This document shows, in pieces, positions 1,381 through 59,588 of a stretch of DNA of 64,000 nucleotides. The notes under the pieces are model-generated. The model searched no databases. It was not told where the DNA came from and saw only the letters and a list, made by a program, of their open reading frames with translations. Made by a program: the position numbers and the translations under genes. Source of the stretch: a phage; the NCBI GenBank assembly GCA_011911785.1, contig GCA_011911785.1_4084.1. One strand, 5' to 3'. How positions within the stretch are numbered: position 1 is the stretch's first letter; each line of letters begins with the position of its first letter.

Positions 1381-1382
1381 GA

Positions 1383-2495: not shown

Positions 2496-2501
2496 AACTC
2501 T

Positions 2502-2529: not shown

Positions 2530-2568
2530 AATTGTATCTGGGCATCATTGCTATTAAGAGATAAGATT

Positions 2569-2998: not shown

Positions 2999-3002
2999 TT
3001 AT

Positions 3003-39305: not shown

Positions 39306-39329
39306 AGGAGCCATTGGCTCCTTTTTTTT
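39306..39329. terminator. Bidirectional rho-independent terminator
   Basis: Hairpin ggagcc-att-ggctcc with A-run upstream and T8 downstream, between convergent genes. Confidence 0.75.
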
Positions 39330-39792
39330 AATATCTATATGGTAGACTATTGACAAATTGTGTACCAGCGTTTATACTTTCCCATAAAGAATAAAAATCT
39401 TTCATCAAATTAACATTTAATAATGTATTTTTAGCTCCAGGGTGAAGAGGTTTAGGCCATGAGCCAATTTTAACCCAAGCATATCCAGAGCTTTCCTTAT
39501 TGAGAATAGGAACAAACTCATTTTCAACAACAACAACGAAAGAATAATATTTGAACTTACCATTCTTAGTACAAAATACATCAAAGGGTATAATATCAAT
39601 TATATCAGGTAACGAATCTCCCAATTCTTCTCGTATTTCACGATGCAAAGCTTGCAAAGGGGATTCGTTGTATTCGAGTTTTCCACCAACAAAAGCCCAG
39701 TTGTTTGAATAGGTACTGCTTTCAGATCTAAGATTGAGCATCATATGACCAGTACTTTTAGATAAAAATATTGCTCCTACTGCCTCATTCAT
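39328..39792 (-). CDS. Nudix hydrolase (second copy, 154 aa)
   Basis: Nudix box GGKLEYNESPLQALHREIREELG. Confidence 0.8.
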   Translation of the reverse strand: MNEAVGAIFLSKSTGHMMLNLRSESSTYSNNWAFVGGKLEYNESPLQALHREIREELGDSLPDIIDIIPFDVFCTKNGKFKYYSFVVVVENEFVPILNKESSGYAWVKIGSWPKPLHPGAKNTLLNVNLMKDFYSLWESINAGTQFVNSLPYRY

Positions 39793-39801: not shown

Positions 39802-41145
39802 TTATTTGTCAGTGAATGATATCTTCCAATATCCCTGACGGTATTGCGACATAATACTCTTATGCCATTTGAATTTTTCATTGTATCTATAATAGTGACT
39901 ATCTTGACGATTGTAAACATAATTAAGTACTGAAGACGGTTCAATTAGTTCAGCACCTTCATTTGTTATTTTGAACAAATAATTTGGTGGAATAACTGTG
40001 TCTTTGTAAATTAAATCTCTTGCACTATTATTTACATAATATTGTTCAGGTATAGCTGAATACAATTCTGAATCTTTGGATATCAACGCTATGATAGAGT
40101 AATCGACAACATAATTACTACTATCCAATTGAACAACAATCTTGTTTGCCTTATCTTCGTGTCCCATTGATATTATAGTTCCACGCAAAGGATTACTTTC
40201 TTCGATTGCTTGTTGGAATTTAATACCGAGTTTCTTATCTTTGTATTCAGGCTCTAAGTACTGAATATATTTCTCCCAAGAATATATACCACCGTTGGAT
40301 GTTCTCTCACTCATACTTTGACTTACCAATGTAAGGACATAAGTATCTGCGTTTTTATCCGATGCTTCTGTTATTTCTTCAACTTTGATGCATAAATTTT
40401 TAGGAGTGAATACATCAGTAATTATATCCTGATAGTTTCCTATTTCAAAATCCAATTCATCACGACCACTTTCTATATTAGTTGTTATCTGTTGTATAAG
40501 CTTTGGCTTTTCAACGATAGCAGGTAATGATAACCATATAGTTGTTTCAAATGTAAGAACCATAATATCAAGTTCAGTATCAGTTCCTTGTGGAAATCCA
40601 CGAGTACTGAATTGACAGTCAATTAATTCCACATCACTTTGTGCCGTCCAGTCTAATGGGTTATCAGATAGTTGCAATTGAACACTTGGAGCAAACAATG
40701 TACTGATTTGCTCATATAATTCCATTTTTGTTTGCAGTTGTGTAACCCATATGTTTAAATCAAATGTAAATGTCCAAGGTACAGGGTTATGTCTTGTTAT
40801 TTTATACTGCTTATCCAACTCAGGAGTGAATTCATTTGGTGCAGGGGACTTATTTGTCCCCATAATAATAGTTTCGTTCGCATTTGAACGAATACTTTTA
40901 CGATCCAATTTCAATTGATTCACACTAATAGTCATGATCGGTGCAGTAGGCATTACGTTCTCACTGTTACCATTGATAACAGCAGCAGCCAAACGTGAAA
41001 TATCTGCATATCTACATGGAACTTGCTTGTATCTTGGTTTACCTTCGTCATCAACTCCATTTTGTACTTGAAACCCACCAAAAATCCTGATAAGATGTTT
41101 CAGTACTCGACGAAATTGACCATCATAGTAGTATTCTACTTTCAT
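39802..41145 (-). CDS. Tail sheath stabiliser/tail completion protein, T4 gp15-like
   Basis: N-terminus YYYDGQFRRVLKHLIRIF...KQVPCRYA resembles T4 gp15 N-terminus as recalled from memory. Confidence 0.55.
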   Translation of the reverse strand: MKVEYYYDGQFRRVLKHLIRIFGGFQVQNGVDDEGKPRYKQVPCRYADISRLAAAVINGNSENVMPTAPIMTISVNQLKLDRKSIRSNANETIIMGTNKSPAPNEFTPELDKQYKITRHNPVPWTFTFDLNIWVTQLQTKMELYEQISTLFAPSVQLQLSDNPLDWTAQSDVELIDCQFSTRGFPQGTDTELDIMVLTFETTIWLSLPAIVEKPKLIQQITTNIESGRDELDFEIGNYQDIITDVFTPKNLCIKVEEITEASDKNADTYVLTLVSQSMSERTSNGGIYSWEKYIQYLEPEYKDKKLGIKFQQAIEESNPLRGTIISMGHEDKANKIVVQLDSSNYVVDYSIIALISKDSELYSAIPEQYYVNNSARDLIYKDTVIPPNYLFKITNEGAELIEPSSVLNYVYNRQDSHYYRYNEKFKWHKSIMSQYRQGYWKISFTDK

Positions 41146-45032: not shown

Positions 45033-45041
45033 AAAAGAAAA

Positions 45042-45066
45042 GGAGAGCCAATGGCTCTCCTTTTTT
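45042..45066. terminator. Bidirectional rho-independent terminator
   Basis: Hairpin ggagagcc-aat-ggctctcc with A-run upstream and T6 downstream. Confidence 0.75.
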
Positions 45067-45067: not shown

Positions 45068-48000
45068 TTATTGAATATTCAATAGATTTTCGATATCAGT
45101 TCCAGTAATTGACAATCCATTTCTGAATGTATCTAATGGAATTGGTGGATAGAAGTTTTGATATTGAGTAAACTTATCAATGCTCCCCAAGTTCAATCCA
45201 TTAAAGCTATAAGACGTTCCTTTAGTAAAATTATGTTCCGCACTATACATGACACCACGTAATAGACGGTCAGTGTTTCTTACCTGAACCTTCTCATATC
45301 CAACCACAATAATATCATCATTCTGTGCCGCAGCACCTGACAGTACTGAATCAGTAATGATATATGGGCTTATTGAACGAGGTTTAGCAACATAAGTGAT
45401 TGCCTCATCTTCAACGGTTGTAATGTTAATTACACTACATCCTACTTCTTTGATGAACGTGTTATTGACCACAGGTTGTGCATACTGCCACACGCGATCA
45501 TAACTTAGTACTGGTTGAATAACATCAACATCGTATTCAAATACAGTGATTTCAATACCATCAGTCATTTTAGCTCGTACTAGTTCACCCAGGACACCTT
45601 TACCAGAGATTGGCTGATTGTAACCATTATCAATTGTAATACCATCAACTTCAAAAATCTCATTGGAAACTAACCACAAATCAATTTCATCAGGTGTGAT
45701 ACCATCATTGAATTTACCACCATATAATGTTTCGTCATAGAATACTTCATAGTTCAATGCATGTATACTGTAATGACGATTATTTTCATATAGTTTAAGT
45801 CCATTGTCATCAAACTCAGGGTCTTGGAAAGTGCGGATTCTAACTAAGTTCATTGATAATGTATAAAAACGCTCATTACTTTCACGCTTAGTTATACTAT
45901 CAAACATTAACACTACACCATTACTATCAACCAACTCTACGTTACCATTACCCAATACACGTACTGTGTATAGTTTTGGTTTTTTAGAGGATTGGATTTT
46001 ACTAGCACTTAATATAGTTACCCAGTTACCGTCTTGGAATCGTACATAATCTTCACCATCTGGCGTGAAAATCATAACCTTATCACCATCTTTCAAACCT
46101 TCATCGTGAACTTTGATTTCAGTAATTGTTTTAATTTCTGAAATTGGGAAGAAGTATTTTTCAGATTCTTTGAACACATCTTTACCCATATTCTCAATGA
46201 CAATATCATATGATGGAATACTTACAACTGCTTCTGACATATTGTAAGGGTTTTGTACGATCATACCCTCAATCTGGAATCTACTTGTGTCTTTTAATTG
46301 CTCTTGAGCAACTTCATCGAAACCGTAACCATCAACAGTGAAACGTAATTGTGCCATTGTTCTTCCTGATGGGTTTAGTTCAGAAATGTCGATGATATAA
46401 GGATCAATCTCACTATCTTTAACTTCCCATTTAATGGATTTGGTTTGTGATTCCAATGCCAAGTTATCGAATGCATTCATATCATTGAAATATTTTGCAG
46501 TATTGATACTTTCCAGTACTTCAACATATGCAGAATACATTGGATTATTCTGGTCTTGTGGTAAATCATTTAAATCAATTTCAGCCAATACAACTGATTC
46601 TCCGGTTGTTATGAATAAGTCTTCCATGAAATCAGATATGCTGTAACTTTCAGGAATCGGTAGATATTCACCTGCCGCATTCACAACATACACATATTTC
46701 CTTGGCATCATAACAAAAGCATACTTATCAACTGCACGATTACTTAAGATTTCTCTAGCAACATAATAATGATCTAGAATATTCTTATTAAATGTTTGTC
46801 GCATTGCAGATAACACATGAACGGTATCAGAATAATAACGGTCATTTAATGTGGTATCATACTTGTAGCAATAAACACCATATTCTATCTCTAGTATATT
46901 ACGAACTTGGTCTTCATTAGTAAACTCAGGGTGATTTTTCTTGATCATATCGACATATTTTTCATATAGTTCAATACTAATCTCAAAATAACCATAGTTG
47001 TAATCACTACTTGCACTGAACCCAAAAGGTAGGCGAGTATTAGGATTATCATTATAGTTCGTACCCTTAAATGGACAACCAATCTCATTAGAAACCATGT
47101 CATCAGATATATTCTTAAACATTTTCACACGAGTTGCTAATGTATTGTATTGAATATATTTCTTAACGTCTTCTAAAATGTTACTGTTGTTTGTATCAGT
47201 AGTTACCTGCTCCAAATCAGCAGTAAATTGGTCAGTCATTGCAATATCAGTTGAATGGGCTTTATACCATGCATCAATTCCTTTAATGACACCATTACTA
47301 ATATCCAAATCTGAATATTTGGTAGTCATTTCAATACCAATCTGTGAAATTAAGGTATTATTATCATATTCAGGGAATGTATAAACATATCTCTGTAATT
47401 CATAATCATTTCCTATATCCGAAGCATTAGATTGATACTTACTATTGGTTGATTTCAACTCATCAATTGTATAATTACTATCATACGGGTCACATTGAAT
47501 ATTATCATAATGCATAATAACGTCGATTTCTTGGAATCGTCTGTTAGGTGTGATAAAGTCACTTGGTAGTGAACCAATCTTTTCCCAACGTTGGGTTACG
47601 TCATTAAATTGTGCATATTCTAAATCCCAAATGTCTTTTTCAGTCTTAACCCACACACCATCAACTAAAATATAGCCATCTGGGTCAAGGTCATTACTGA
47701 TACCATTAATCAAATCATCATCAGAAGTTTTCTGTTCTATTTGAGAACGGATTTTGGTTCTGTATGGTTTAACTTCTTCGAAGTACTCAACAATTTGATT
47801 AATCAAGTTGTCATTTGAGTAGTTTTGTACGAGAGATTGTTCTAAACCTACAATATAGATATATGAGGTTTTGAATACCCAGTCAACAACACTTTGTTCA
47901 GTGTGTACGTACTTAACCATATCAAAAACAATATTACTTTGATATAAGTTGAATGAATTTTTCAACAACGCTAACGCATTACGAACGTTAACCTCATGAG

Positions 48001-51000
48001 AATTCAAAGAACCATCATCATTGTAAACATTGTACCCAGAATATAACATTGAATTCAATTCAACTGTACTATTCTCACGTCCAATAGCTTTCCAGTATAT
48101 ATTATTACGAGATGCAGTCTTGATGTATAATGTCCAAACACCATCACTATCAGTTACACGGATAATATCACCAATTTGGTAATTTTTAGTGTTTGCGTCA
48201 TCTAAACTAACTTCTTGTGTATATTCAGTGTTGCTATCGTATCCAGTATCGTACCAATCAGCCAGATTCCAGTACTGGGTCATATCCAAAGATGTACCAA
48301 GTGATTCTATGAAGTCAGCTTGTTTAATCATCTTGTGTTGACCTTCACCTCTATTTTCTAGAGTGATTGTAACAGTACTTCCAACTGTACTTGGACTGTT
48401 CATCAATTGAATGTATCCATTTGGATCAATGTGAACAAAATATACTGAACTAGAAGATAATGGTGCTGGCAGAGTTCCGATGGAACTTACAAATACTGCA
48501 TCATTCTCTTTAAAGCGGTTATCTTCTGGTGCAATTACCAATTCATTGTTAAATGATAGAACACGGAATGTAATATCATTTGGGTTCATTTTTAATGTTT
48601 TCACATTAAACACATCATTCATAACAACACTGTTAGTTGTGATGTTCTGTGAACGGTAAAAGTTATTTGCACTCTCAACAAACGCACGACGAGCTTCAAT
48701 GACATTCTGGAACCAAGTTTTATTAGAACCTAAACCAGTTTCAACTTTAGGATAAATTATTTCATTTACAACACCAGTTGAAGTAGTTTCTTGACCAATT
48801 AGTGAGTTCCATAGTGAATTCCAAATATCTGGGTTAAAGTCATAACTATCACCTTCTTTACAGAGTTGATATTGATCATGCTTCAGTACTTCGATATTGT
48901 CATTTCTATATGAAATTGTCAAAATGCTTGTATCATCATTAACTTCAAATTGCATATTACTTAGAATGAAACTATTTTCATTAATAGGTGCAAACCAAGG
49001 AACATTCAATTGTGTTGGATCTTGAATAATACGTGCAATATCAGTACAAGACTTACTACGAGTAGTCATTGGTGGAACATAAATGGTATTACGAACCCAG
49101 AAATAATAACGAACTACATATGTATCAGTGATTGGATCATATTCCATAGATGAACTGTAGTTCTCATCCATTGCAATCCCACTTGGGAGATACATAGTAT
49201 TGTTTTTATTTTTATTGGCTTGTTCTGCACAATATTTTTCCCAGTTGTATGGTTCTACTGGTGAACTAACCCATTCTAGAACATCAATAACACTGTGTGG
49301 TAATAATTTACCCCAATTATAACGCTTATATTCATTAGTTGCTTTTACATCAACGTTACCATCCTCATCAAAGATTGGACGGGTATAATCCAGATAGAAT
49401 GCAGTGCTAGTGTTCCACCACACTTTACCTACCTTTTCAGCACCCCATGCTTGTAATAGTTCACCGTTACTGCTATACTGTGCTGGGTCCACTGGAGAGA
49501 TGAAATCAACATCTTGCATTGCAACCCCAGGAATAACACCGTTAATTGGGTCAAACACATTCAAATACAATGCAGTAATGTTTGTTCTTTCATCATACGT
49601 AGTAGGACGGTCAAACAAAGTGCTTTCAGGTGCACTGTAACTATATTTTTTAGCAATATATTCATCGCGTTCTTGTTGAGTACTAAATCTACTAACATAA
49701 CGATACAAACGTGGTGCTGATTCTACTGTTGAAAAGTCAATAGTAATGGAAGTGTCAAATGGCACTACCATAACTTTTGGATCTAGTCCAGAAGTGTAGT
49801 ATTGGCATTCATCACGTAGGGCATCAGGCATAAAGTTTGTTTCATCAACAAAATAATAATAATCACCATCATTGAGTGGGATATCATCAGACAATAGTAC
49901 TTTACAATATTGCTCAGCATATGGATCTTCACTTTCAATTGGTGTAATAGAAACCATTGTAATACCAGTATCTACTAAATCATACACATTCCATTCGTTA
50001 TTGATATCTTGGAACATCCAAACAGATGTTGGGATTTTACCAGAATTATTCATATAACTAATGCGGTCTTGATTTGCAGTTTCGTAATTTAATGTGGTAT
50101 AATCAATTTCATCTAGGGTTACTGGTCCAATATTAGGTAATTGGATATTCTCACTTCTCCCATTACGCATAGGGAATGAGAATTTACCTTTTGGACGACT
50201 AATCCAGCGTGAATCTTCACCAATTTCACCATAATATACAATTTCATTCTCAGATTCAACCTTATCGGAATAACGGTCAAACGTAATCATTTGTGGTTGT
50301 TGTTTAAACTCATTATTAATTAGTTTAAATTGAAGATTTTTAACACCATCAATGTTACCATAAGAACCAACACGGAATGCCCATTCTTGTAATGCTTTAT
50401 ACTCATCAGTATTATATGATTTAGATACACGTAATACTTTTTCTAGTACTTGGTTAGTGCCTTTATCATGAATAAAACCTTTATAGAAATCAATTCGACC
50501 AGGCTCATTAGTGATCATACGTTGTAAGTAATCACGAGACTGATAGCCAATTAAGTGGTTTGAAAGTTCATTTAATTGAACATCACTAACTGGGGTTTCA
50601 TTATCATAATACTGTTGGAAATTAGACACCAAAGTTTCAAATGATGGTAATGTACCAGCTTCTAGGATGATAAATCCAGGAGCTTGTAAACGTCCAGACC
50701 ATGAACCAGTGATATATCCATACAATTTAATCAATTCTTGAACTGCACCATAGGTTGGTTCATAGATATAATCACCGAAAATCGTCTGATCATCAAAAAT
50801 AACAGCATGTTCATAAGAACTGATACTTAAACGAATAAGTGCCATGCGTTTATTTGATTCTTCAGTTGTTCTTACCGTGAATATGTTACCAATACGAGAT
50901 GTTTCAATCTCAAATTGACGTATACCCTGGTTTGAATCATCTAACAATGACCAAACACCACCACTATTTTGTGCAATTGACTGTACTGAACCAAAATCTG

Positions 51001-54000
51001 TACCAAATTTAGCATTAATTGCTGATGGGGTACAAGAAATGAATTCACCAGTACTCAATTGTTGTTGACTCCAGATTAAAAAGTCTTTTGCAATTGTATT
51101 CCAGTCCTGTTGGATACCAGATTCATCAACTTCTTCAAAAATCCAACCATGTTGCTTGAGATACTCACCATAACCACAAATAAATGTGTAAACTTCCTGG
51201 AAGGTATTCATCAAAGTTCCGTAAGGAATGGATGCATCATTTTTCCACTCATTATAATGAACAACATTACGATTATCAACTTTCAAAGATACTTTATGAC
51301 CGTTTTTAACAGGCAATTTATAATTGAATGTTGCAGAAACTAAATCATAACCATCAATTTGGTAAGCACTACCAGTCCAAGTAATTTTAATTGCACTCAT
51401 TTGCTCATTTCTAATATTATTAGAACGAACTAAACCGATAGATTGGTTTTCTTGTGAAATTAGACCAGTTGCTTCTGATGTAAATGTTAATTGATCAGCT
51501 TTAGTGAATCCACCTAGTTTATGACCCACATTAATATGAGAAGAACGAACAATTTCACCGTACTTAGTTGTAATATTTTTGTTTTGATACATCAAATAAT
51601 CACTAACAATCATTTGATAACCAATAACGCGAGTACTATTCTCACCATGTACGATTGTATCACTATTAAAGTTCAAACGTAAACGAGTATCACCATATAA
51701 AAACTGTGGTTCATTACCAGATACAGTTTTTAATGTATTATTTCGGGTATCCCAGAAATAGTTTGTGAACTGTGCAGGTTTAGCTTTGAATAACATCAAT
51801 AATTCATCATATGCAAACATTGCTGTATTCATATAAGTGAATTCCATATCACCCATATCACCATAAGTCCACGGTTCAGCACGATGATTTAGACTACCAT
51901 ATACAAGACCTAAAACTTCAGGAGCAATGTACTCAATGACACAAATATCAACACCAGATGCTGTCTGCTTGCCTGTTTTAGTGATCTTAAATGGTTGTGT
52001 ACCAAAACGTTTGTACTTGTCATATTGACCTTTACGTGCACCAAACAAGATAGTACCAGTTGAGCTATCACCTTTCTCGTTACCAACGTCCCATAACCCA
52101 CTAGGAACCATGTTACCTTGTTCGTTGATAACTAATGCCTCATATACATAAACAACATCACCATCACGTTCGCCAACTTGAACTGCGGTAGGTTCATATT
52201 CCTGGTTCCACCAAACTGGACGTTGGGAGAAACCAAACATTTCCCACGGATGGGTTGCTGGGCGATATGTACCAAATTGGTCAGTGTAGATTGCTCGCCA
52301 TGAACCACGGGCTGCTATTTGTGTTTGTTGACCATTAACCATGTAATGTGTTCCAGTATAGTTCCAAGTCATCCAGTTATTTGGATCATAATCATGTGAA
52401 CTATTACTGATACCATTGGTTGCGATGAAGTTAATATAACCACGTAGTAGTAAGTTCTTTTTCTCTTCGTCATTATACTCTGTATCTCTGTAATACGGAG
52501 TTGGGAAAAGATCAGAAGCATCTAGCTTAGGTTGGTAATCTTCATCTTTGAAAATAACATCAATACTATTGAAAATTCTATTTTCTAACTCATATATAAC
52601 GTCATCCATTTTATCAACACCGTTTATTACACGGTATGCTTTAGTGATTGCACCTGTATGACTGATGTTATAACAGCTTTGCTTACTACCAGCATTCAAA
52701 AATGTTGCTTTTTCTGGAACGTGTGCTTTCAAAATACCCAAAAACTGTGGAGTTGGTGGTACAAACGCACGAATGAAGCCAGAAGTACTTGCTACGTTAT
52801 CATAATAGAATGGGAAAGTATTATCATGACCCATATTAATAATTGTTAGAATTTCATCAACAATATTAGAAGCATTATTAGCTAAGAAGTTTGCTGGGTT
52901 CTCATTGTACAAACGGATCATTTGTGTATTGAACTTGTTTACGAAACGGAAATATTCGGATTGCATAAACAATACAGATTCAAATAGGTCAATATCTTCA
53001 TTTGCAGAATGTGCCATTAACGGTAGCATTGATGCTTCGTTTTGAATAATCTTAGTACCAACGGAGTTATCCACTAATCCTTTAGACAAACGATCTTCGT
53101 AGTCGTTGAAATCATCAACGGAACCACTGGTGATATTCTTTTGAATGATATCTTTAAAATGTAATGTAAAATTACTTTGGTTGATATAAAGAATATTATC
53201 GTTGTATGGGTTATTTTGTAAGTTGATTGGGATTTCATATGCACCCAACTCTTTATTTGGTACTTCAGTACTGCTGTATGTTCTAATTTGAATCACTGAT
53301 TCATCTTTAAGAGCTACATCTTCACCTAAAGTGATGCTTTGAACCTTGTTATTATATACATGACGTGTATAATCGGTTACATCCACACCATCAACTTGAA
53401 TTTCAATGATTTCAGTACTCTTACCATCAATAATTTTCTGGGCCAATTCAAATGTGCGATTGAAACGTTCACTTTGAATACCTTCACCACTAATTACATG
53501 CCAATCCATATAGGTTTGACGTTCTTCTTTGTAATATTGATAGGTACGATCCACTTCAGTAACATATGCATACATACCTTCTAATGGATTTTTAAAGTTT
53601 TCCATTTCGAATACAGTATTGAATACACGATACATATCAGTGTGTTCTATTTGTGGCGTTTGTTTAACGAATTGCTTTGAATCTTCCTTAGAACGAACCC
53701 AATCGGTCTTAAGGTGTAGTTCATTATCTTTACCAACTACATTATAGTAGTACAATCCAGAAATTTCAGTTTCAACACCCAAATGATCATATGTATAACG
53801 AACACTTTGTAGGAAGTTTTCGTACATATAGTAATTATAATTACCTAGTTCGATATTATAACCATATACTTTATCAGTGCCGTAATTATAGTTGATTTTA
53901 AAACCAAATAGGGATGAACCAACAAAGTTACTTGATGGATAAATTGTAGAATCATTTAATTTAACACCATCACGGTCATATAATTGGAATTGTGGGAATA

Positions 54001-55075
54001 CGTTTACACCAGATTTTGTTTGTGCTCTAATCCAGTTAACACCATTCCAGTACATGGATGTATTTTTATATACATTACCATCACGCACCAAAATAACATC
54101 ACCATTATGTGGCTCACCACTTGGGCGGTCATCAGTTTCTTCATCTGGGTCCAATGCTAGACCATATGTGCGAGAACCATCTTGCATTTTCTTAATAAAA
54201 ACTTTATAAATGCGGTTGTTTTCACCAACGTTACCTATACTAGTGAAAAGAATACGCATACCATCTTGTGGAATAATCCCGTCAATACGAATACCATCAT
54301 TTACGTCTTTTTGGACGATATCTTCTGGTTTAATTGTATCAGAGAAAAGATCCACAACACCACGGAAATGTGTCCCGTAGTTAATTAATTCGATATTTTT
54401 ATTGTACTCGATGATTGGTGCTTGTGCACGAATAAAACGAGTATCTTGTGTCATGTCAGCAGTTAGTACTGTTCCATCTTCTAGTGTTTGACCAATAGTA
54501 TACCAAAAGTTCTGTAGGGACCATGTGTTTCCGTTATCAGCACCACGTTCCATAACAATAAAGTCAGGAGTTGTGATACCATAACTATTTTTACTATCCC
54601 ACAAATAGGAACTGTAGTTGGTCATTTTGTTTGGGTTAATTGGTGGTGTCCAAGAATAGAACTTACCAGAAAATAGACGGCTCTCGTTTGAAGTTAACGT
54701 GCCGTAGTGTTCCATGTAGCCAACCAAATCATCATAAAATTGAAGCGAACGAATGCTTGTGTCATCATTACGAGACACATATGCTGTTGATAATTGATAT
54801 AGCTGACGTTCAACGGTTGCTTCGTCAAGGAAAATCTTAGCAGATGCAGCAGGAGAACCCATATCACCAATATATCCATCAACGATTTCATTATCCGCTG
54901 GATTGAACCATTGTTGAATTACATCATCACTAACCTTTTGAATGTCTTCTAAGCCTTGCATCCATTCAGGTAATCTTTTAATGAAAAGCTTCTGTTGTAC
55001 TGCTTCTGCCGTTTTAGTTGGTAGAAACTTAAAATTATTAGTCATGTATAGGACTCCATAAATTCGTTCATTCAT
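45068..55075 (-). CDS. Giant protein (3335 aa), putative baseplate wedge/fibre-network component
   Basis: Single uninterrupted 10-kb ORF; follows gp25-like and 1154-aa genes in the baseplate operon order. Confidence 0.6.
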   Translation of the reverse strand: MNERIYGVLYMTNNFKFLPTKTAEAVQQKLFIKRLPEWMQGLEDIQKVSDDVIQQWFNPADNEIVDGYIGDMGSPAASAKIFLDEATVERQLYQLSTAYVSRNDDTSIRSLQFYDDLVGYMEHYGTLTSNESRLFSGKFYSWTPPINPNKMTNYSSYLWDSKNSYGITTPDFIVMERGADNGNTWSLQNFWYTIGQTLEDGTVLTADMTQDTRFIRAQAPIIEYNKNIELINYGTHFRGVVDLFSDTIKPEDIVQKDVNDGIRIDGIIPQDGMRILFTSIGNVGENNRIYKVFIKKMQDGSRTYGLALDPDEETDDRPSGEPHNGDVILVRDGNVYKNTSMYWNGVNWIRAQTKSGVNVFPQFQLYDRDGVKLNDSTIYPSSNFVGSSLFGFKINYNYGTDKVYGYNIELGNYNYYMYENFLQSVRYTYDHLGVETEISGLYYYNVVGKDNELHLKTDWVRSKEDSKQFVKQTPQIEHTDMYRVFNTVFEMENFKNPLEGMYAYVTEVDRTYQYYKEERQTYMDWHVISGEGIQSERFNRTFELAQKIIDGKSTEIIEIQVDGVDVTDYTRHVYNNKVQSITLGEDVALKDESVIQIRTYSSTEVPNKELGAYEIPINLQNNPYNDNILYINQSNFTLHFKDIIQKNITSGSVDDFNDYEDRLSKGLVDNSVGTKIIQNEASMLPLMAHSANEDIDLFESVLFMQSEYFRFVNKFNTQMIRLYNENPANFLANNASNIVDEILTIINMGHDNTFPFYYDNVASTSGFIRAFVPPTPQFLGILKAHVPEKATFLNAGSKQSCYNISHTGAITKAYRVINGVDKMDDVIYELENRIFNSIDVIFKDEDYQPKLDASDLFPTPYYRDTEYNDEEKKNLLLRGYINFIATNGISNSSHDYDPNNWMTWNYTGTHYMVNGQQTQIAARGSWRAIYTDQFGTYRPATHPWEMFGFSQRPVWWNQEYEPTAVQVGERDGDVVYVYEALVINEQGNMVPSGLWDVGNEKGDSSTGTILFGARKGQYDKYKRFGTQPFKITKTGKQTASGVDICVIEYIAPEVLGLVYGSLNHRAEPWTYGDMGDMEFTYMNTAMFAYDELLMLFKAKPAQFTNYFWDTRNNTLKTVSGNEPQFLYGDTRLRLNFNSDTIVHGENSTRVIGYQMIVSDYLMYQNKNITTKYGEIVRSSHINVGHKLGGFTKADQLTFTSEATGLISQENQSIGLVRSNNIRNEQMSAIKITWTGSAYQIDGYDLVSATFNYKLPVKNGHKVSLKVDNRNVVHYNEWKNDASIPYGTLMNTFQEVYTFICGYGEYLKQHGWIFEEVDESGIQQDWNTIAKDFLIWSQQQLSTGEFISCTPSAINAKFGTDFGSVQSIAQNSGGVWSLLDDSNQGIRQFEIETSRIGNIFTVRTTEESNKRMALIRLSISSYEHAVIFDDQTIFGDYIYEPTYGAVQELIKLYGYITGSWSGRLQAPGFIILEAGTLPSFETLVSNFQQYYDNETPVSDVQLNELSNHLIGYQSRDYLQRMITNEPGRIDFYKGFIHDKGTNQVLEKVLRVSKSYNTDEYKALQEWAFRVGSYGNIDGVKNLQFKLINNEFKQQPQMITFDRYSDKVESENEIVYYGEIGEDSRWISRPKGKFSFPMRNGRSENIQLPNIGPVTLDEIDYTTLNYETANQDRISYMNNSGKIPTSVWMFQDINNEWNVYDLVDTGITMVSITPIESEDPYAEQYCKVLLSDDIPLNDGDYYYFVDETNFMPDALRDECQYYTSGLDPKVMVVPFDTSITIDFSTVESAPRLYRYVSRFSTQQERDEYIAKKYSYSAPESTLFDRPTTYDERTNITALYLNVFDPINGVIPGVAMQDVDFISPVDPAQYSSNGELLQAWGAEKVGKVWWNTSTAFYLDYTRPIFDEDGNVDVKATNEYKRYNWGKLLPHSVIDVLEWVSSPVEPYNWEKYCAEQANKNKNNTMYLPSGIAMDENYSSSMEYDPITDTYVVRYYFWVRNTIYVPPMTTRSKSCTDIARIIQDPTQLNVPWFAPINENSFILSNMQFEVNDDTSILTISYRNDNIEVLKHDQYQLCKEGDSYDFNPDIWNSLWNSLIGQETTSTGVVNEIIYPKVETGLGSNKTWFQNVIEARRAFVESANNFYRSQNITTNSVVMNDVFNVKTLKMNPNDITFRVLSFNNELVIAPEDNRFKENDAVFVSSIGTLPAPLSSSSVYFVHIDPNGYIQLMNSPSTVGSTVTITLENRGEGQHKMIKQADFIESLGTSLDMTQYWNLADWYDTGYDSNTEYTQEVSLDDANTKNYQIGDIIRVTDSDGVWTLYIKTASRNNIYWKAIGRENSTVELNSMLYSGYNVYNDDGSLNSHEVNVRNALALLKNSFNLYQSNIVFDMVKYVHTEQSVVDWVFKTSYIYIVGLEQSLVQNYSNDNLINQIVEYFEEVKPYRTKIRSQIEQKTSDDDLINGISNDLDPDGYILVDGVWVKTEKDIWDLEYAQFNDVTQRWEKIGSLPSDFITPNRRFQEIDVIMHYDNIQCDPYDSNYTIDELKSTNSKYQSNASDIGNDYELQRYVYTFPEYDNNTLISQIGIEMTTKYSDLDISNGVIKGIDAWYKAHSTDIAMTDQFTADLEQVTTDTNNSNILEDVKKYIQYNTLATRVKMFKNISDDMVSNEIGCPFKGTNYNDNPNTRLPFGFSASSDYNYGYFEISIELYEKYVDMIKKNHPEFTNEDQVRNILEIEYGVYCYKYDTTLNDRYYSDTVHVLSAMRQTFNKNILDHYYVAREILSNRAVDKYAFVMMPRKYVYVVNAAGEYLPIPESYSISDFMEDLFITTGESVVLAEIDLNDLPQDQNNPMYSAYVEVLESINTAKYFNDMNAFDNLALESQTKSIKWEVKDSEIDPYIIDISELNPSGRTMAQLRFTVDGYGFDEVAQEQLKDTSRFQIEGMIVQNPYNMSEAVVSIPSYDIVIENMGKDVFKESEKYFFPISEIKTITEIKVHDEGLKDGDKVMIFTPDGEDYVRFQDGNWVTILSASKIQSSKKPKLYTVRVLGNGNVELVDSNGVVLMFDSITKRESNERFYTLSMNLVRIRTFQDPEFDDNGLKLYENNRHYSIHALNYEVFYDETLYGGKFNDGITPDEIDLWLVSNEIFEVDGITIDNGYNQPISGKGVLGELVRAKMTDGIEITVFEYDVDVIQPVLSYDRVWQYAQPVVNNTFIKEVGCSVINITTVEDEAITYVAKPRSISPYIITDSVLSGAAAQNDDIIVVGYEKVQVRNTDRLLRGVMYSAEHNFTKGTSYSFNGLNLGSIDKFTQYQNFYPPIPLDTFRNGLSITGTDIENLLNIQ

Positions 55076-55091
55076 TTGATTTATTTATGCT

Positions 55092-55117
55092 ATAAAAAAG
55101 GCGACCCGAAGGCCGCC
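55092..55117 (-). terminator. Minus-strand terminator with UUCG tetraloop
   Basis: On minus strand ggcggcc-uucg-ggucgcc followed by UUUUUUA. Confidence 0.6.
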
Positions 55118-55126
55118 ACGATTTTA

Positions 55127-58100
55127 TTAAAAACCAATATTAATATTACTTTTAGCTAGAGAGTTAACGATTTGTACGTTATCAACGGTAGCAGTACTAA
55201 TGAATATTTGGTCAGGTCTTGAAGGTATCTCAAACAATGAACCAAACTTAGAATTAGGGTTTTGAGCTACAATTACAACAGTACTAATGTGTCTACCAAG
55301 TTGGGTATGAAGGTACGTACACAAGTCAGTATAATAGAAACTTTCACCAAAATCCCAGTTCTCAACTGCAAAGTACTGGTTAGTTAATGAAACAATATTT
55401 TGACGAATTTCATCATCACTCATTGTACTATTAGGTAATTTCACTACTTTGAAATCAGCTTTATAATCCGGTGCTGCACTATTACCAAATAAAGGCAAAT
55501 ATTCAGCACTATGCCATATCAAACTATCACTAATTACAGTTTTCTTCTCAACATCCTTGAAGATATCTTGTAATTCAACCGATGTTGGTGGTTTAGGCAT
55601 ATCACCTTTAGCACCATTCTTCAACCAAATATCAACTTCTGTCTTATATGAGTTTGTTAAAACATACATATCAATTAAGTTGGTTCTGCTTGGGTCGATT
55701 CGATTATCATCTGGTGCATAATGCTTCCAGTGGAAGTTAATAGACGTTCTAGCATTAGTTTTTATAGTAAGTTCAGATGTAATATCCTTATAACCATAAT
55801 AATTAAGCTTTTTATTAGCGTCAACACTTGTACCCATGTTTTTAATACAACGATAGAAAGCAGTTTCTGGAGTAGCCGCACTTGGGTCTGTAACTTCAGT
55901 CATGTTCTGAATTAGAACACCCAAACGGTCATTGTTATTACCAACTGTTTGTTCGATGAAGTAATATTGCCCTTCGTATTGGAATGCAATAATAAAACCA
56001 GTACCTTTACTATATAGTTCACTCAGTGTAGTTGAGCGAATTTCATTATTACGAATGAATTCTTGTCTCTTGTACGCATTAGTTTCAGCTAATGCCTGAT
56101 CCATTGTGTAATTCCATGTTGAATCCATGATAGTGAATGATGAATTTGGTAATGTCAATGAAGAAATAGTAAAATCTTCATTTTGTTGAAATACCAATAT
56201 ACCACCATATTTTCTAGAATCTTCACCTGTCCAATCAGGAACAATAGATTGGAATTGGTTAGGATTTAATGGAATACCATTACTATCCATACTTTCTGAT
56301 GTAATTACAACTCTTGAACCATCCAAATAACCATTTTCTTGTTTTATTGTATCCAGAATCTGGAAATCAATGTTATTGGTTAGACCCACGTTACTAGTAC
56401 TGGTAGAGTTTGATGAAAGAATCTCAATTTTATCACTTTGCACTGAACCAGAACTAATATCAGTGATTTTCTTAGAGCTTACAAAGTAAAAACGAACTTT
56501 TTCTCCACCAACAAATACATACTCAACACCATTGGAATCAAATTCCCATGTTTCAGCAGTGTATTGGATGTTAACCATCACCTGTACTAACGAACCATTG
56601 TATGTTATAGTATCACTAGTGGTTGTCATTTCCAAAGGAACCCATGTAGTGGATACAATATCATAAATTAGAATAAAGTTAGTTTTCTTATCTAACATTG
56701 CAGCAATATTTTGTACTTCAACTGTATTGAAACGAGTTCTATATGGGCTAATGTACTCCTGAATCTGCATAGAGGAAGAAATCGGCGTACTTAGAACATA
56801 AAAACCGTTAGGTAACACGCTAACAATACTAGCCCATACGATATTATTTGAACTACTACCGAATTTAATTAATGTACCAACTTTATAATCACCATAAATT
56901 GTACCAGTTGCCCCAATAATACGACCATATGTATTAGTTGCATAGCTTGAACTATATGATGGAACCCAGTTTTGTTGTAATTCAACACGTACTGTATTCT
57001 GCGGATATGCTTGATACTTCTGAATAACAGCATTTTCACCAATTAATGGTTGTATATCATCGATAACAATACTAGAATTAGATTTAGTACTTGGTAAATT
57101 AACAGATTTATTGTATTTGGTGACATTTTTGTACATTGCACCATCATCACTAAACACATCAGTGTTTTGATACTTACCAGTTGGGTCATTTATGTCAATA
57201 AATCGTGATTGTCCACTGTAAATTCGGTTAATCGCTTTAGATTTCAGTACTGCATTACCTTGACTCAACGGAGCAATGTTATAATCTTCACCATTCACAA
57301 AACGGTTTTGAGTATAATACATTTGTGGTGCACGAGCTTTAATTTGTTCAAGGGTTTCTGCACTTTGTGCACGGTCTGATTCAAATTGTAAACTAAATTT
57401 AATATCTAATGTACTATTCTCATAGTTAGATTGTGATTTAGTTCTGTAAATGTACTTAACACTTTTGTTTTGAATGTCAGCAGTTTTGATGTTGTATGTT
57501 TCGCCATTACTAACACGATACCAAACGCGATATGTACCACGTGGAACAACACCACTACGTGAATCAGGGAACTTAATACTGATTTGGTCACGATCACGAG
57601 TAGTTACCGCATAAATTGTTTTAAGTTGGCGTGTTACAGTGTTATATGCGATACTTTCCATCGATGGAACCTTAGTCCATTTAGTACGAACTATACCATC
57701 TTCAGTGATTTCCTGTACCCATACGTCAGTTTCGTTAATATTGTCTACGTTTATATCCTGAATACGGTTTTCTTGTCTTACATCGTATTGGAAATCTTGA
57801 TATTGTAATGTTCCTTGAATAAAATAAACAAAGAATCCAGTATTAGGTGAACTAAAACCATTACCATCATTCTGATACACAATATATTTCTGTTCTTGTG
57901 GCTCAGGGTGTCTTTCATCAACACCAATAACGTTAATATCTGGGTTTACGACTTCAAATGTCATCGATTCACCATTTACTGTTGCGGTGAATGGTAAATT
58001 AGGTGCAGACATAGGTAAAGTGTTCATTCTATACAAATGACGAGACACACCATTAATATCTAAACGTTTTACTGGATTACCAAACTGGTTAGTACTGACA

Positions 58101-58591
58101 AATGCACTATTCATCACCAGAATAAAGTTTTCATACCAGTTAGAGTCCATTGGGTCATTCCAACGGATAATTTTATCTTTAAGAGATTCGTTATAGCTGT
58201 TGCGAACGTCTTGGTTAGTTTTAATTTCAGTTAGTTTTGCTGTTGCTCGCCCTGGATATGCACGACGAGGTGAATATGAGATCATTTTAGCTAATTTAAG
58301 TACAGATGCACGACGACTAGCAGTATCTAGGAAGTTTTCACGCGTGTTTAAATCCATACGAAATGCTAAGTTTTGTCCAAGCATCGCAATGGTATCTAAA
58401 ATGAAGATAAACTGGTCATTCTCAATCCAGTCATTGAATGAATCAGGATATGTTTGACGCAAATAATCAATCATACTTTGACGTATTGTATCGAAGTCAT
58501 AAGCCGTCAGATTTATTTTATAGAAACTTTCATATACCTGGGTCCAGTCTTCCCCCGCGTATAAATTAGATTGTCTTTTTTGTTGTGACAT
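55127..58591 (-). CDS. Large baseplate protein (1154 aa), possibly gp6/baseplate-J-like
   Basis: ORF track; assignment from synteny directly downstream of gp25-like gene, no motif confirmed. Confidence 0.45.
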   Translation of the reverse strand: MSQQKRQSNLYAGEDWTQVYESFYKINLTAYDFDTIRQSMIDYLRQTYPDSFNDWIENDQFIFILDTIAMLGQNLAFRMDLNTRENFLDTASRRASVLKLAKMISYSPRRAYPGRATAKLTEIKTNQDVRNSYNESLKDKIIRWNDPMDSNWYENFILVMNSAFVSTNQFGNPVKRLDINGVSRHLYRMNTLPMSAPNLPFTATVNGESMTFEVVNPDINVIGVDERHPEPQEQKYIVYQNDGNGFSSPNTGFFVYFIQGTLQYQDFQYDVRQENRIQDINVDNINETDVWVQEITEDGIVRTKWTKVPSMESIAYNTVTRQLKTIYAVTTRDRDQISIKFPDSRSGVVPRGTYRVWYRVSNGETYNIKTADIQNKSVKYIYRTKSQSNYENSTLDIKFSLQFESDRAQSAETLEQIKARAPQMYYTQNRFVNGEDYNIAPLSQGNAVLKSKAINRIYSGQSRFIDINDPTGKYQNTDVFSDDGAMYKNVTKYNKSVNLPSTKSNSSIVIDDIQPLIGENAVIQKYQAYPQNTVRVELQQNWVPSYSSSYATNTYGRIIGATGTIYGDYKVGTLIKFGSSSNNIVWASIVSVLPNGFYVLSTPISSSMQIQEYISPYRTRFNTVEVQNIAAMLDKKTNFILIYDIVSTTWVPLEMTTTSDTITYNGSLVQVMVNIQYTAETWEFDSNGVEYVFVGGEKVRFYFVSSKKITDISSGSVQSDKIEILSSNSTSTSNVGLTNNIDFQILDTIKQENGYLDGSRVVITSESMDSNGIPLNPNQFQSIVPDWTGEDSRKYGGILVFQQNEDFTISSLTLPNSSFTIMDSTWNYTMDQALAETNAYKRQEFIRNNEIRSTTLSELYSKGTGFIIAFQYEGQYYFIEQTVGNNNDRLGVLIQNMTEVTDPSAATPETAFYRCIKNMGTSVDANKKLNYYGYKDITSELTIKTNARTSINFHWKHYAPDDNRIDPSRTNLIDMYVLTNSYKTEVDIWLKNGAKGDMPKPPTSVELQDIFKDVEKKTVISDSLIWHSAEYLPLFGNSAAPDYKADFKVVKLPNSTMSDDEIRQNIVSLTNQYFAVENWDFGESFYYTDLCTYLHTQLGRHISTVVIVAQNPNSKFGSLFEIPSRPDQIFISTATVDNVQIVNSLAKSNINIGF

Positions 58592-58655: not shown

Positions 58656-58684
58656 CCAAAAGAAAAGCACTCCGAAGAGTGCTT
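58656..58684 (-). terminator. Minus-strand terminator with UUCG tetraloop
   Basis: On minus strand aagcacuc-uucg-gagugcuu followed by UUCUUUUGG. Confidence 0.6.
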
Positions 58685-58690: not shown

Positions 58691-59086
58691 TTATAATTTA
58701 GATGTTGTGAATGTCGCCATTCTATTATTACTTCTGGCATCAAACACTATAGTTAGTTGTTCTAATTTATCAAGCATTACATACTCTAAAATTATATCCA
58801 AACGATAACCATATTCAACATTACTAACTGTTAGATTTTTTAAATTCAAACGTGGGTCTAATGAAATAATTCTACGAGCGTCAGCTTCTAAAAGATTTTT
58901 TGTATTATAACCATCAAGTTCAAAAATCAAATCCCAAGCAATGAAACCATAATCAGCATCAAATGCTCTTTCACCTTTCTTTGTATTGAAGTGGTTCATC
59001 AAATCCTGTCTCACCAACTCAGCATCATACAGAGTTTGTGTTTTACCCACAACAGGAGTAGAGAAACCTTTAAAAACTATTGCCAT
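58691..59086 (-). CDS. Baseplate wedge protein, gp25/GPW-like
   Basis: 131 aa; motif KKGERAFDADYGFIAWDLIFE matches the gp25-family GER...FG...L.FE signature. Confidence 0.65.
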   Translation of the reverse strand: MAIVFKGFSTPVVGKTQTLYDAELVRQDLMNHFNTKKGERAFDADYGFIAWDLIFELDGYNTKNLLEADARRIISLDPRLNLKNLTVSNVEYGYRLDIILEYVMLDKLEQLTIVFDARSNNRMATFTTSKL

Positions 59087-59099: not shown

Positions 59100-59588
59100 T
59101 TATACGGATTCAACAATCCTTGCCATTTTTTCAGCACGAGAAGTTGTTTGACGATACCAAGCGGAATCACGCATTTCTTTGCCAGCGGTTTTATAATCAC
59201 CACGACCCAATGCTGCCATTGCTTTCTTAAAGTTCAATACACGAGATTTACCCATTTGGAATACCATCATCCAAAGTACACGTTGTACTTGAATAGGTGC
59301 AGTCATTCCGAATTGATCGTAAATCTCTTTTGCTTCTCTGTATGCATTTAGGGAATCTTTTTGAAGTAATGCTTCAGCTTCAGCTTCCGTTAGCCCTGCA
59401 CTGAAATTTTCACCTTTTAGTACTAAGTGACCATATCCAATGGTATCTAGTCCTAGGCTATCTTTATAAACTCTGAATTTACCATTCTTGAAATAACCTA
59501 ATTTAGTTTGGAAAGCAATAGTACCTTCAAACTCTTTAATTTCTTTCAAATACTGTGCATCATCAGGTTTAATTTCCCATTTACTCAT
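59100..59588 (-). CDS. Lysozyme, GH24 (T4 e-like)
   Basis: EFEG...YKDSLGLDTIGYGHL...MVFQMG...SAWYRQT matches T4 lysozyme catalytic region. Confidence 0.9.
   Translation of the reverse strand: MSKWEIKPDDAQYLKEIKEFEGTIAFQTKLGYFKNGKFRVYKDSLGLDTIGYGHLVLKGENFSAGLTEAEAEALLQKDSLNAYREAKEIYDQFGMTAPIQVQRVLWMMVFQMGKSRVLNFKKAMAALGRGDYKTAGKEMRDSAWYRQTTSRAEKMARIVESV

What the first reader, a model, noticed from the sequence alone, without database searches (positions are those of the whole stretch)
45068..58591. Giant 3335-aa and 1154-aa ORFs in the baseplate operon
Downstream of the gp25-like gene, in the position where contractile systems carry the gp6/gp7 (TssF/TssG-like) wedge proteins, lie a 1154-aa ORF and an uninterrupted 3335-aa ORF (10 kb). 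The latter far exceeds known wedge proteins, implying fusion of a wedge core with extensive fibre, enzymatic or decoration domains. I could not recognise any catalytic motif by eye.
Basis: partly seen in the sequence, partly recalled or inferred. Interest (0 to 1): 0.65.

Follow-up and report, generated by a model that had tools for sequence, protein, structure and literature searches.

The report
Giant baseplate-operon proteins of a jumbo phage
The two huge genes are real, already catalogued tail-baseplate genes of a jumbo E. coli phage: one is an enlarged standard wedge protein, and the other, about 3,300 residues long, is a particle protein of a large giant-protein family that has no recognisable relative of known structure.

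Summary
Both ORFs exist as described, on the minus strand. The window is 99.6% identical to Escherichia phage A4 (Asteriusvirus, 355 kb), where they are annotated "baseplate wedge" and "structural protein". They are not assembly artefacts. Orthologues were found in virions by mass spectrometry in phages phAPEC6 and, by gene order, CBB.

The 1154-aa protein is an enlarged gp6/gpJ/TssF-type wedge protein (PHROG 219, E = 1.6e-21; P1 BplA, E = 1.7e-4).

Its core defines a family of at least 1,478 clusters, mostly giants of 2,500–6,600 aa. In 75 of 80 viral loci (7 of 9 deep lineages) it follows gp25 and the gp6-like gene.

Best reading: a baseplate scaffold in the gp7/TssG position. Homology to gp7 is undemonstrated. 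The gene is known; its role is not. Interest is moderate.

The parts
59623..62286 (-). Baseplate hub/spike protein (887 aa), gp5/gp27-like, with a C-terminal lysozyme domain and a weak M23 peptidase signal
   Evidence: Pfam Phage_base_V 1.1e-6, Phage_lysozyme 4.2e-8, DUF2345 1.3e-6, Peptidase_M23 7e-4. phrog_13211 matches over its full length.
59100..59588 (-). Small lysozyme (162 aa), a paralogue of the C-terminal domain of the hub protein
   Evidence: Pfam Phage_lysozyme 2.2e-9. Matches positions 727-885 of phrog_13211, the hub family.
58691..59086 (-). gp25/gpW/TssE-like baseplate wedge protein (131 aa)
   Evidence: Pfam GPW_gp25 3.9e-9; phrog_43 3e-14.
58665..58684 (-). Terminator-like hairpin (8 pairs, TTCG loop, T-rich tail) between the gp25-like and gp6-like genes
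   Evidence: Consensus scan.
55127..58591 (-). Enlarged gp6/gpJ/TssF-family wedge protein (1154 aa; family PF27647/DUF8360)
   Evidence: phrog_10646 over its full length and phrog_219 at 1.6e-21. Family profile hits P1 baseplate BplA (9ay5_Y) at E = 1.7e-4. Pfam Gp6-like_1st matches weakly in 10 of 32 members. 3,835 homologues found. The phAPEC6 orthologue gp244 was detected in virions with 21 peptides.
55100..55117 (-). Terminator-like hairpin GGCGGCC-TTCG-GGTCGCC followed by T6, between the gp6-like gene and the giant gene
45068..55045 (-). Giant virion structural protein: 3325 aa from Met11 (the maximal ORF reaches 55075, 3335 aa), about 380 kDa
   Evidence: phrog_10938 matches over its full length at 5223 bits. 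Annotated as A4_580 'structural protein'. The phAPEC6 orthologue gp245 (381.9 kDa) gave 17 virion peptides. CBB_236, taken as the CBB orthologue by gene order, gave 21 peptides. Start codon reasoning.
51926..55075 (-). Giant, residues 1-1050. Conserved multi-domain N-terminal third: residues 1-100 poorly predicted (helices 31-57), 100-620 beta-rich, 630-900 helical, 910-1050 beta
50216..51925 (-). Giant, residues 1051-1620: the most conserved, almost gap-free core block of the family
   Evidence: Conservation profiles. A profile of this block finds 1,478 clusters in 1.84 billion proteins and more than 600 IMG/VR loci, but no PDB hit.
50417..50641 (-). Giant, residues about 1479-1553. Family-invariant motif LPNFEK..LSxHLIGYQxRxYL..FYxGFIxEKGT..LR..EEWAF, predicted as five helices at very low monomer confidence. 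Candidate hetero-oligomer interface.
   Evidence: Invariant residues Y1531, G1533, K1538, G1539, R1549. pLDDT 27-40. The resemblance to the P2 gpI / T4 gp7 'KGT' region is not statistically supported.
49676..50278 (-). Giant, residues about 1600-1800: variable region and main insertion hotspot (FG-GAP-containing inserts in distant relatives)
47666..49675 (-). Giant, residues about 1801-2470: second conserved half of the core, ending in the highly conserved EVKPYRTKIR motif (about 2434-2443)
   Evidence: Model 2 is confident for residues about 1580-2060.
45071..47665 (-). Giant, residues about 2471-3335: fast-evolving C-terminal region. Nucleotide similarity to other Asteriusviruses is lost here.
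   Evidence: The megablast match to PBECO4/121Q starts only at query base 2412-2425. Identity to close relatives drops from about 80% to 50-58%.
45038..45064 (-). Strong terminator-like hairpin (12 pairs plus a T-run) closing the operon, between the giant and the convergent ClpA-like gene

Best explanation
These are late structural genes of an Asteriusvirus (Rak2-like) jumbo myophage, essentially Escherichia phage A4.

The 1154-aa protein is the gp6/gpJ/TssF-family wedge protein, enlarged by extra domains.

The giant protein (3325 aa from Met11, about 380 kDa) is a virion component encoded as the third gene of a conserved gp25 -> gp6-like -> giant cassette. It most likely binds the gp6-like protein and forms the outer part of each baseplate wedge. 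That would make it a single-chain peripheral-baseplate scaffold in the position and role that gp7/TssG/gpI, plus accessory peripheral proteins, fill in other contractile systems.

Its conserved core (residues about 50-2450) is a string of many small beta-rich and helical domains that would build the platform. The fast-evolving C-terminal part of about 860 aa, and the insertion hotspots that carry adhesion modules in relatives, would face outward to dock fibres or touch the host surface.

Shown: the genes are real, the orthologues are in virions, the family is large, the synteny is conserved, and there are no enzyme domains.
Inferred: the baseplate location of the giant, its contact with the gp6-like protein, and its scaffold and fibre-platform role.
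For: - Identity with phage A4 and its annotation.
- Virion mass spectrometry of orthologues: phAPEC6 gp244 and gp245; CBB_236 and CBB_237, matched by gene order.
- The gp6-like nature of the 1154-aa protein.
- The cassette hub - gp25 - gp6-like - giant recurs in a relative only 27% identical. In 75 of 80 IMG/VR loci the gp6-like gene lies at most 2.1 kb upstream on the same strand. That covers 7 of 9 lineages at 50% identity. gp25 lies directly before the gp6-like gene in 73 of 75.
- The PA5oct paper describes gp128 as one of the two largest proteins and gp129 as baseplate wedge.
- The table of T4 homologues in the CBB paper, as far as it was displayed, lists gp6, gp25 and gp53; a search of that paper for 'gp7' found no occurrence. 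No other ORF in the window or flanking A4 DNA matches gp7 or gpI profiles.
- The giant has globular, aromatic-rich, non-repetitive sequence. Its models show multiple small domains.
- The most conserved helices have the lowest monomer confidence, as expected for interface segments.
- Relatives insert FG-GAP and CBM5/12 adhesion modules at the hotspots.
Against: - My hhalign positive control (DUF8360 family against P2 gpJ) also failed, so the negative results have limited power.
- The location of the giant within the virion has never been shown. Mass spectrometry shows only that it is in particles.
- Two of nine lineages, and locus L004, lack the DUF8360 neighbour.
- The 80 loci are not independent samples.
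- Only residues 1-2250 were modelled. The second model is mediocre (pLDDT 68.9).
Confidence: 0.55

Rival explanations
1. One reading: the giant is a true, divergent gp7/TssG/gpI homologue whose wedge core (core-bundle helix plus trifurcation domain) is fused to about 3,000 residues of added domains.
For: - Its position immediately after the gp6-like gene, as in P2 W-J-I, T6SS TssE-F-G and the phiKZ gp87/gp128 wedge (gene orders of P2).
- Conserved helical segments with low monomer confidence at residues 31-57 and 1479-1553.
- An eye-level resemblance of the FYxGFIxEKGT region to P2 gpI 'HCHKGT' and T4 gp7 'YSTKGI'.
- The best, though non-significant, hhalign alignment to T4 gp7 falls on gp7 residues 654-787.
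Against: - hhalign with deep profiles gives probability at most 1.4%, similar to reversed controls.
- Pfam Tail_P2_I does not detect 10 diverse fragments.
- Neither the full-length profile nor the core profile gives any PDB hit at E <= 10.
Confidence: 0.2
2. The giant is mainly a receptor-binding or fibre-type protein (the gpH position of P2-like operons). It hangs from the baseplate and is not part of the wedge architecture.
For: - In P2 the fibre gene H follows I.
- The C-terminal part of about 860 aa diverges fastest.
- Relatives carry CBM5/12, FG-GAP and TIG adhesion modules and a faint T7-tail-fibre N-terminal signal.
Against: - About 2,400 residues are conserved down to 25% identity across more than 1,000 clusters, which is unlike receptor-binding proteins.
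- There are no repeats, coiled coil, beta-helix or collagen-like sequence, and no fibre or tailspike PHROG or Pfam hit.
- The window holds separate fibre and depolymerase genes: a 1845-aa fibre protein and a colanic-acid-degrading protein.
Confidence: 0.17
3. The giant is an internal or ejected virion protein (like P1 DarB or N4 vRNAP) or a tape-measure-like tail-lumen protein, co-located with the baseplate genes by accident.
For: - PHROGs files phrog_10938 under the generic 'head and packaging / virion structural protein' label.
- Mass spectrometry shows only that it is in particles.
- Giant size is typical of some ejected proteins (my own knowledge).
Against: - No polymerase, helicase, methylase, protease or lysin domain is found.
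- The models are beta-rich and multi-domain rather than the long helices of tape measures.
- The adjacency to gp25 and gp6-like is conserved.
- Surface-type adhesion inserts occur in relatives.
Confidence: 0.06
4. The long ORF is an assembly or annotation artefact, or a non-structural gene.
For: None found.
Against: - It is identical in length in an independent complete genome, with no indels.
- Intact orthologues occur in dozens of phages and hundreds of metagenomic contigs.
- Peptides from the phAPEC6 orthologue, and from CBB_236 (the CBB orthologue by gene order), were found in purified virions.
Confidence: 0.01

Closest known systems
Orthologues in Rak2-like jumbo phages: A4_580/A4_581, phAPEC6 gp245/gp244, CBB_236/CBB_237, 121Q 582/583, PBECO4, probably PA5oct gp128/gp129
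   Same: Same two genes in the same order. The window is 99.6% identical in nucleotides to A4 and 59-74% identical in amino acids to the others. Both phAPEC6 proteins were detected in virions; CBB_236/237 were too, matched by gene order.
   Different: Nothing of substance. None of these orthologues has an assigned role, a location in the virion or a structure.
T4 gp6 / P2 gpJ / P1 BplA / phiKZ gp87 / T6SS TssF (wedge protein, two copies per wedge)
   Same: The 1154-aa protein shares the N-terminal helical and gpJ-type motif region (phrog_219 1.6e-21; BplA E = 1.7e-4). It also follows gp25.
   Different: It is about twice the size of T4 gp6 (660 aa by my own knowledge) and larger than phiKZ gp87 (963-residue chain). 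Most of its length (family DUF8360) has no counterpart in the solved proteins.
T4 gp7 (1032 aa) / P2 gpI (176 aa) / phiKZ gp128 / T6SS TssG (third member of the wedge heterotrimer)
   Same: Gene position right after the gp6-type gene. No other candidate for this essential role was seen among the ORFs of the window and flanking A4 DNA that were checked. Roles of these proteins are taken and from established knowledge (Taylor et al. 2016).
   Different: No detectable sequence or fold similarity. The giant is three times longer than T4 gp7 and nineteen times longer than gpI.
Peripheral baseplate scaffolds: the T4 gp8/gp9/gp10/gp11 network, CBA120 TSP4 gp10-like anchor domains, and phiKZ gp27 (the core scaffold of its outer periphery)
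   Different: The similarities are weak and limited to single domains. In those phages the platform is built from many separate proteins, whereas here it would be a single chain of about 380 kDa.

Membership tests
gp6 / gpJ / TssF wedge family (for the 1154-aa protein) | Significant match to family sequence profiles, including the N-terminal helical domain | tested here: met
   phrog_219 'baseplate wedge subunit' at 1.6e-21 over residues 26-126 plus a second stretch. The family profile hits P1 BplA 9ay5_Y at E = 1.7e-4. Pfam Gp6-like_1st matches weakly in 10 of 32 members, best E = 0.013. The CBB paper reports BLASTP 3e-5 between CBB_237 and the second reference phage's gp6, NP_899587.1.
gp6 / gpJ / TssF wedge family (for the 1154-aa protein) | Encoded next to the gp25/gpW/TssE gene in a baseplate operon | tested here: met
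   gp25-like gene directly upstream. The same holds in 73 of 75 related loci.
gp6 / gpJ / TssF wedge family (for the 1154-aa protein) | Two copies per wedge forming a heterotrimer with a gp7-type protein | not testable with these tools
   Needs a structure or stoichiometry data.
gp7 / gpI / TssG wedge family (for the giant) | Sequence similarity to gp7, gpI or TssG profiles | tested here: not met
   hhalign against a 78-sequence gp7 profile and a 113-sequence gpI profile gives probability at most 1.4%, like the reversed controls. Pfam Tail_P2_I is not detected. No PDB sequence hit. Caveat: the positive control also failed.
gp7 / gpI / TssG wedge family (for the giant) | Fold of the trifurcation unit and core-bundle helix shared with solved gp7/TssG chains | tested here: inconclusive
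gp7 / gpI / TssG wedge family (for the giant) | Gene immediately downstream of the gp6-type gene | tested here: met
gp7 / gpI / TssG wedge family (for the giant) | One copy per wedge, bound to two gp6-type subunits | not testable with these tools
   Needs cryo-EM, cross-linking mass spectrometry or multimer prediction.
PHROG 10938 'virion structural protein' (for the giant) | Full-length match to the family profile | tested here: met
   5223 bits; residues 11-3332 align to profile positions 1-3324 of 3324.
Tail fibre / tailspike receptor-binding proteins (for the giant) | Fibrous repeats, beta-helix or known fibre domains; variable distal part on a short conserved anchor | tested here: not met
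   No internal repeats and globular composition. No fibre Pfam or PHROG hit. About 2,400 aa are conserved. Only the C-terminal 860 aa are variable.
Tape measure / internal ejected proteins (for the giant) | Long helical protein, or one carrying enzymatic domains such as lysin, polymerase or methylase | tested here: not met

The most novel reading that the evidence does not exclude
The giant family is a structurally new, single-chain solution to the outer baseplate. One polypeptide of 2,500-6,600 aa, always paired with a DUF8360 gp6-type protein, would replace both the gp7/TssG adaptor and the multi-protein peripheral network of T4 or phiKZ. Adhesion modules plugged into surface loops would tune host contact. 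This would be widespread in environmental jumbo phages (at least 1,478 clusters at 50% identity, more than 600 IMG/VR loci).
Probability: 0.3. Interest if true: 0.6.

Novelty: already known. Interest (0 to 1): 0.38.

Why it matters
The genes are catalogued: they appear in the GenBank annotation, in PHROGs and in two virion proteomes, and the largest gene was used as an anchor in published genome comparisons. The finding is therefore not a discovery.

What remains open is of some value. All solved contractile baseplates in the PDB copy searched here, including T4, P1, phi812 and phiKZ, fail to explain the largest structural protein of a very large clade of jumbo phages. Those solved baseplates use a (gp6)2-gp7-type wedge. 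If this 380-kDa protein fills the gp7 position without the gp7 fold, or hides a divergent core, it would show how far the conserved wedge module can be remodelled.

It is also the likely docking platform for the branched fibre systems that give these therapeutic-candidate phages their host range.

Tried and rejected
1. Direct and profile HMMER searches of the giant (full length and core block) against all PDB sequences gave zero hits at E <= 10.
2. Pfam scans of the giant, of 14 family members at E <= 1, and of 10 motif fragments at E <= 10 showed no recurrent family.
3. I pursued an eye-level resemblance of the invariant FYxGFIxEKGT region to the P2 gpI / T4 gp7 'KGT' region. I built gpI (113 sequences) and gp7 (78 sequences, down to about 30% identity) profiles and a 343-sequence giant-core profile. 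hhalign gave probability at most 1.4%, like the reversed controls, so I dropped it as evidence. The positive control (DUF8360 family against P2 gpJ) also failed, so the power of this test is limited.
5. A T4-type late promoter (TATAAATA) upstream of the giant: the motif is not enriched in the window (2 matches against 8 expected), so I dropped it.
6. Self-BLAST for internal repeats, and BLAST of the giant against the gp6-like protein, found nothing.
7. The assembly-artefact reading is rejected.
8. The tape-measure and ejected-enzyme readings are rejected on domain content.
Full report
**1. Observation**

The window contains, on the minus strand, an ORF of 3335 codons (45068..55075) and one of 1154 codons (55127..58591). 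Upstream in the direction of transcription are:
- a gp25-like gene (58691..59086; Pfam GPW_gp25, E = 3.9e-9);
- a 162-aa lysozyme;
- an 887-aa hub/spike protein with Phage_base_V, DUF2345, lysozyme and weak M23 signals.

GC content is about 34%, so a 10-kb open frame cannot be chance (my estimate: P about e^-250). The ATG at 55045 (Met11) has GGAG 8 nt upstream, while the ATG at 55075 has no ribosome-binding site. The GenBank annotation and the PHROG alignment both start at Met11. The likely product is therefore 3325 aa.

**2. Identity of the locus**

The 13.5-kb region is 99.6% identical to Escherichia phage A4 (ON286972, Asteriusvirus, 355.5 kb). It is about 78% identical to PBECO4, 121Q, phAPEC6 and about 30 other jumbo coliphages, except for the 3'-terminal 2.4 kb of the giant gene. 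A4 annotates the genes as A4_581 'baseplate wedge' and A4_580 'structural protein'. Compared with A4 there are 50 substitutions, no indels and 6 amino-acid changes in the giant. This, together with dozens of intact orthologues of 3,310-3,361 aa, rules out an assembly artefact.

Both proteins are virion components in relatives:
- In phAPEC6, gp244 (131 kDa, 21 peptides) and gp245 (381.9 kDa, 17 peptides) were detected (PMC7247149).
- In CBB, CBB_237 (13 peptides) and CBB_236 (21 peptides) were detected; I equate these with the orthologues by gene order (PMC5259590).

The CBB authors used 'the largest gene' as the anchor when comparing Rak2-like genomes, so a giant gene in these genomes is known. 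In PA5oct, gp128 is described as one of the two largest proteins and gp129 is annotated as baseplate wedge.

**3. The 1154-aa protein**

It matches phrog_10646 over its full length, and phrog_219 ('baseplate wedge subunit') at 1.6e-21 through its N-terminal helical region. It belongs to a family of 3,835 detected homologues of about 1,100-1,300 aa, tagged PF27647/DUF8360. A 32-sequence profile hits the P1 baseplate protein BplA (9ay5_Y) at E = 1.7e-4, over the conserved N-terminal motif and the region around residues 330-440. Ten of 32 members weakly hit Pfam 'Gp6-like_1st'. It is therefore an enlarged gp6/gpJ/TssF-type wedge protein, as annotated.

**4. The giant: what it is made of**

- It matches phrog_10938 end to end at 5223 bits, but no Pfam family. 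Scanning 14 members at E <= 1 showed no recurrent family.
- It has no internal repeats. Its composition is uniformly globular and aromatic-rich, with FWY at 10-16%.
- Alignments show a conserved core over residues about 50-2450, with about 130 invariant positions. Indel hotspots lie at 164-169, 450-600, 950-1050, 1600-1800 and 2150-2200. The C-terminal 860 aa evolve faster.
- The block 1401-1600 is the most conserved in every comparison.
- AlphaFold2 models show many small beta-rich domains and helical segments. The model of residues 1-1050 has pLDDT 83.8; the model of residues 1051-2250 has pLDDT 68.9.
- The most conserved stretch (about 1479-1553, motif LPNFEK..HLIGYQxRxYL..FYxGFIxEKGT..EEWAF) is predicted as five helices at pLDDT 27-40. 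The conserved N-terminal helices (31-57) are also poorly predicted. High conservation with low monomer confidence is what I would expect of segments that fold only in a hetero-oligomer. This is inference.

**5. The giant: comparison with known structures**

- phmmer and profile searches against all PDB sequences gave no hit at E <= 10, for the full length and for the core block.
- No enzyme fold appears, and T4 gp7 is not listed.

I tested a tempting resemblance of the 'KGT' motif to P2 gpI and T4 gp7. Using profiles of 113 gpI, 78 gp7 and 343 giant-core sequences, hhalign gave probability at most 1.4%, comparable with reversed controls. I therefore do not use it as evidence. Because my positive control (DUF8360 family against P2 gpJ) also failed, these negatives mean 'not detected', not 'excluded'.

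**6. Family size and genomic coupling**

A profile of the core block finds 1,478 clusters at 50% identity in 1.84 billion proteins (1,037 at E <= 1e-30). Most of the top 150 are giants of 2,500-6,600 aa; about ten are under 2,200 aa, and in several of those the match runs to an end of the protein, so they may be truncated. IMG/VR holds more than 600 loci.

In the 80 best loci:
- a DUF8360 gp6-like gene lies immediately upstream on the same strand in 71, and within 2.1 kb in 75;
- gp25 directly precedes the gp6-like gene in 73 of 75.

The 80 loci collapse into 9 lineages at 50% identity or more, and 7 of these keep the cassette. The exceptions carry a different large ORF upstream: 933-938 aa in the lineage whose contigs are the size of the PA5oct genome, and 716 aa in L013. 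One distant member (L004) is not in a baseplate context. No other ORF in the window or flanking A4 DNA matches gp7 or gpI profiles. A search of the CBB paper for 'gp7' found no occurrence, and its table of T4 homologues, as displayed, lists gp6, gp25 and gp53.

**7. Plug-in modules**

In larger relatives such as P0080 and P0092, an FG-GAP repeat sits in an insertion at the hotspot equivalent to residues about 1757-1780 of the giant. A CBM5/12 module sits just after the end of the conserved core (about 2490-2540). Further insertions lie near residue 2950. Other members carry TIG domains or a faint T7-fibre N-terminal signal. These are surface or adhesion modules, which suggests the sites are exposed on the particle.

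**8. Mechanism proposed**

All solved contractile baseplates build each wedge from two gp6-type subunits and one gp7/TssG-type subunit, joined by an N-terminal helical bundle to which gp25 docks. This rests on established knowledge (Taylor et al. 2016) and is confirmed for phiKZ gp87/gp128 in PMC13250141. Peripheral proteins then form the fibre platform.

Here the third gene of the cassette is the giant. I propose that it binds the gp6-like dimer and extends outward as a single-chain peripheral scaffold, presumably one copy per wedge. The conserved 2,400-aa core would form the platform. The variable C-terminus and the hotspots would face fibres or the host. Confidence is about 0.55. A baseplate location and contact with gp6 are inferred, not shown. 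True homology to gp7 is a separate, weaker claim (about 0.2).

Rival readings:
- a fibre or receptor-binding protein (0.17);
- an internal or ejected protein, or a tape measure (0.06);
- an artefact (0.01).

**9. Verdict**

The genes themselves are already catalogued and known to encode virion proteins. What is unknown is the architecture and role of the giant, which belongs to a very large, structurally unassigned family. Interest is moderate: it is a good cryo-EM target rather than a surprise.

Noticed in passing
window 58665-58684, 55100-55117, 45038-45064 (minus strand): Each intergenic gap of the gp25 / gp6-like / giant series holds a terminator-like GC hairpin followed by a T-run, and two of them have TTCG loops. 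A partial terminator between the gp6-like gene and the giant could lower expression of the giant relative to the gp6-like protein, which would fit a 2:1 wedge stoichiometry. This is speculation. Phage G17's record lists a 'terminator' feature under the matched region.
   Followed up: partly
window 55045 vs 55075: The maximal ORF (3335 aa) probably over-extends. Met11 has a GGAG Shine-Dalgarno 8 nt upstream, and it matches the A4 annotation and the start of the PHROG alignment, giving 3325 aa.
   Followed up: yes
window 42747-45032 (+): A 761-aa ClpA/ClpB-like double AAA+ ATPase (AAA_2 2.6e-50, ClpB_D2-small 1.6e-21) sits inside the structural module, convergent with and only 35 nt from the end of the giant gene. 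A phage-encoded unfoldase or chaperone next to a 380-kDa structural gene may be relevant to its folding or assembly.
   Followed up: no
window 59100-59588 and 59623-62286 (minus strand): The 162-aa lysozyme is a paralogue of the C-terminal domain of the 887-aa hub protein (it matches positions 727-885 of the same PHROG). The hub also shows a weak M23 peptidase signal, so it may carry two cell-wall-degrading activities.
   Followed up: no
window 39328-39792 (minus strand): A NUDIX/MutT hydrolase gene lies among the tail genes, next to the gp15-like tail sheath stabiliser (39802-41145).
   Followed up: no
window 27076-32613 and 33648-35819 (minus strand): An 1845-aa tail-fibre protein gives seven matched stretches to phrog_4549. 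A 723-aa protein matches the 'colanic acid degradation' family and has a tailspike-like N-terminal adaptor. These are separate host-recognition genes downstream of the baseplate operon.
   Followed up: no
L004 (GCA_025061805.1, contig JANWZV010000001.1): A 4664-aa family member is labelled as 'Candidatus Dojkabacteria' (a CPR bacterium MAG), but its 117-kb contig encodes a terminase, DNA polymerase B and SbcCD-like genes. It is probably a phage contig binned into a bacterial MAG. Here the giant is not next to gp25 or gp6 genes.
   Followed up: partly
One search hit list (e.g. P0491 6606 aa, P0377 6281 aa, P0444 6278 aa): Family members reach more than 6,600 aa, with the conserved core block displaced to residues about 2,200-2,900. 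Large N-terminal additions therefore occur as well as internal and C-terminal ones.
   Followed up: no
L020, L022, L060 (contigs of 282-287 kb, the size of the PA5oct genome): This lineage has a shorter version of the giant (about 2,440-2,460 aa). The 933-938-aa ORF upstream is not recognised by the DUF8360 profile, although the PA5oct paper annotates the neighbouring gene as baseplate wedge. It may be a very divergent or different gp6-type partner.
   Followed up: partly
Pfam library vs precomputed tags: PF27647 (DUF8360) appears in the precomputed annotations of the protein database, but the local Pfam-A copy did not report it for the same proteins. The model is probably newer than the local library.
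   Followed up: no
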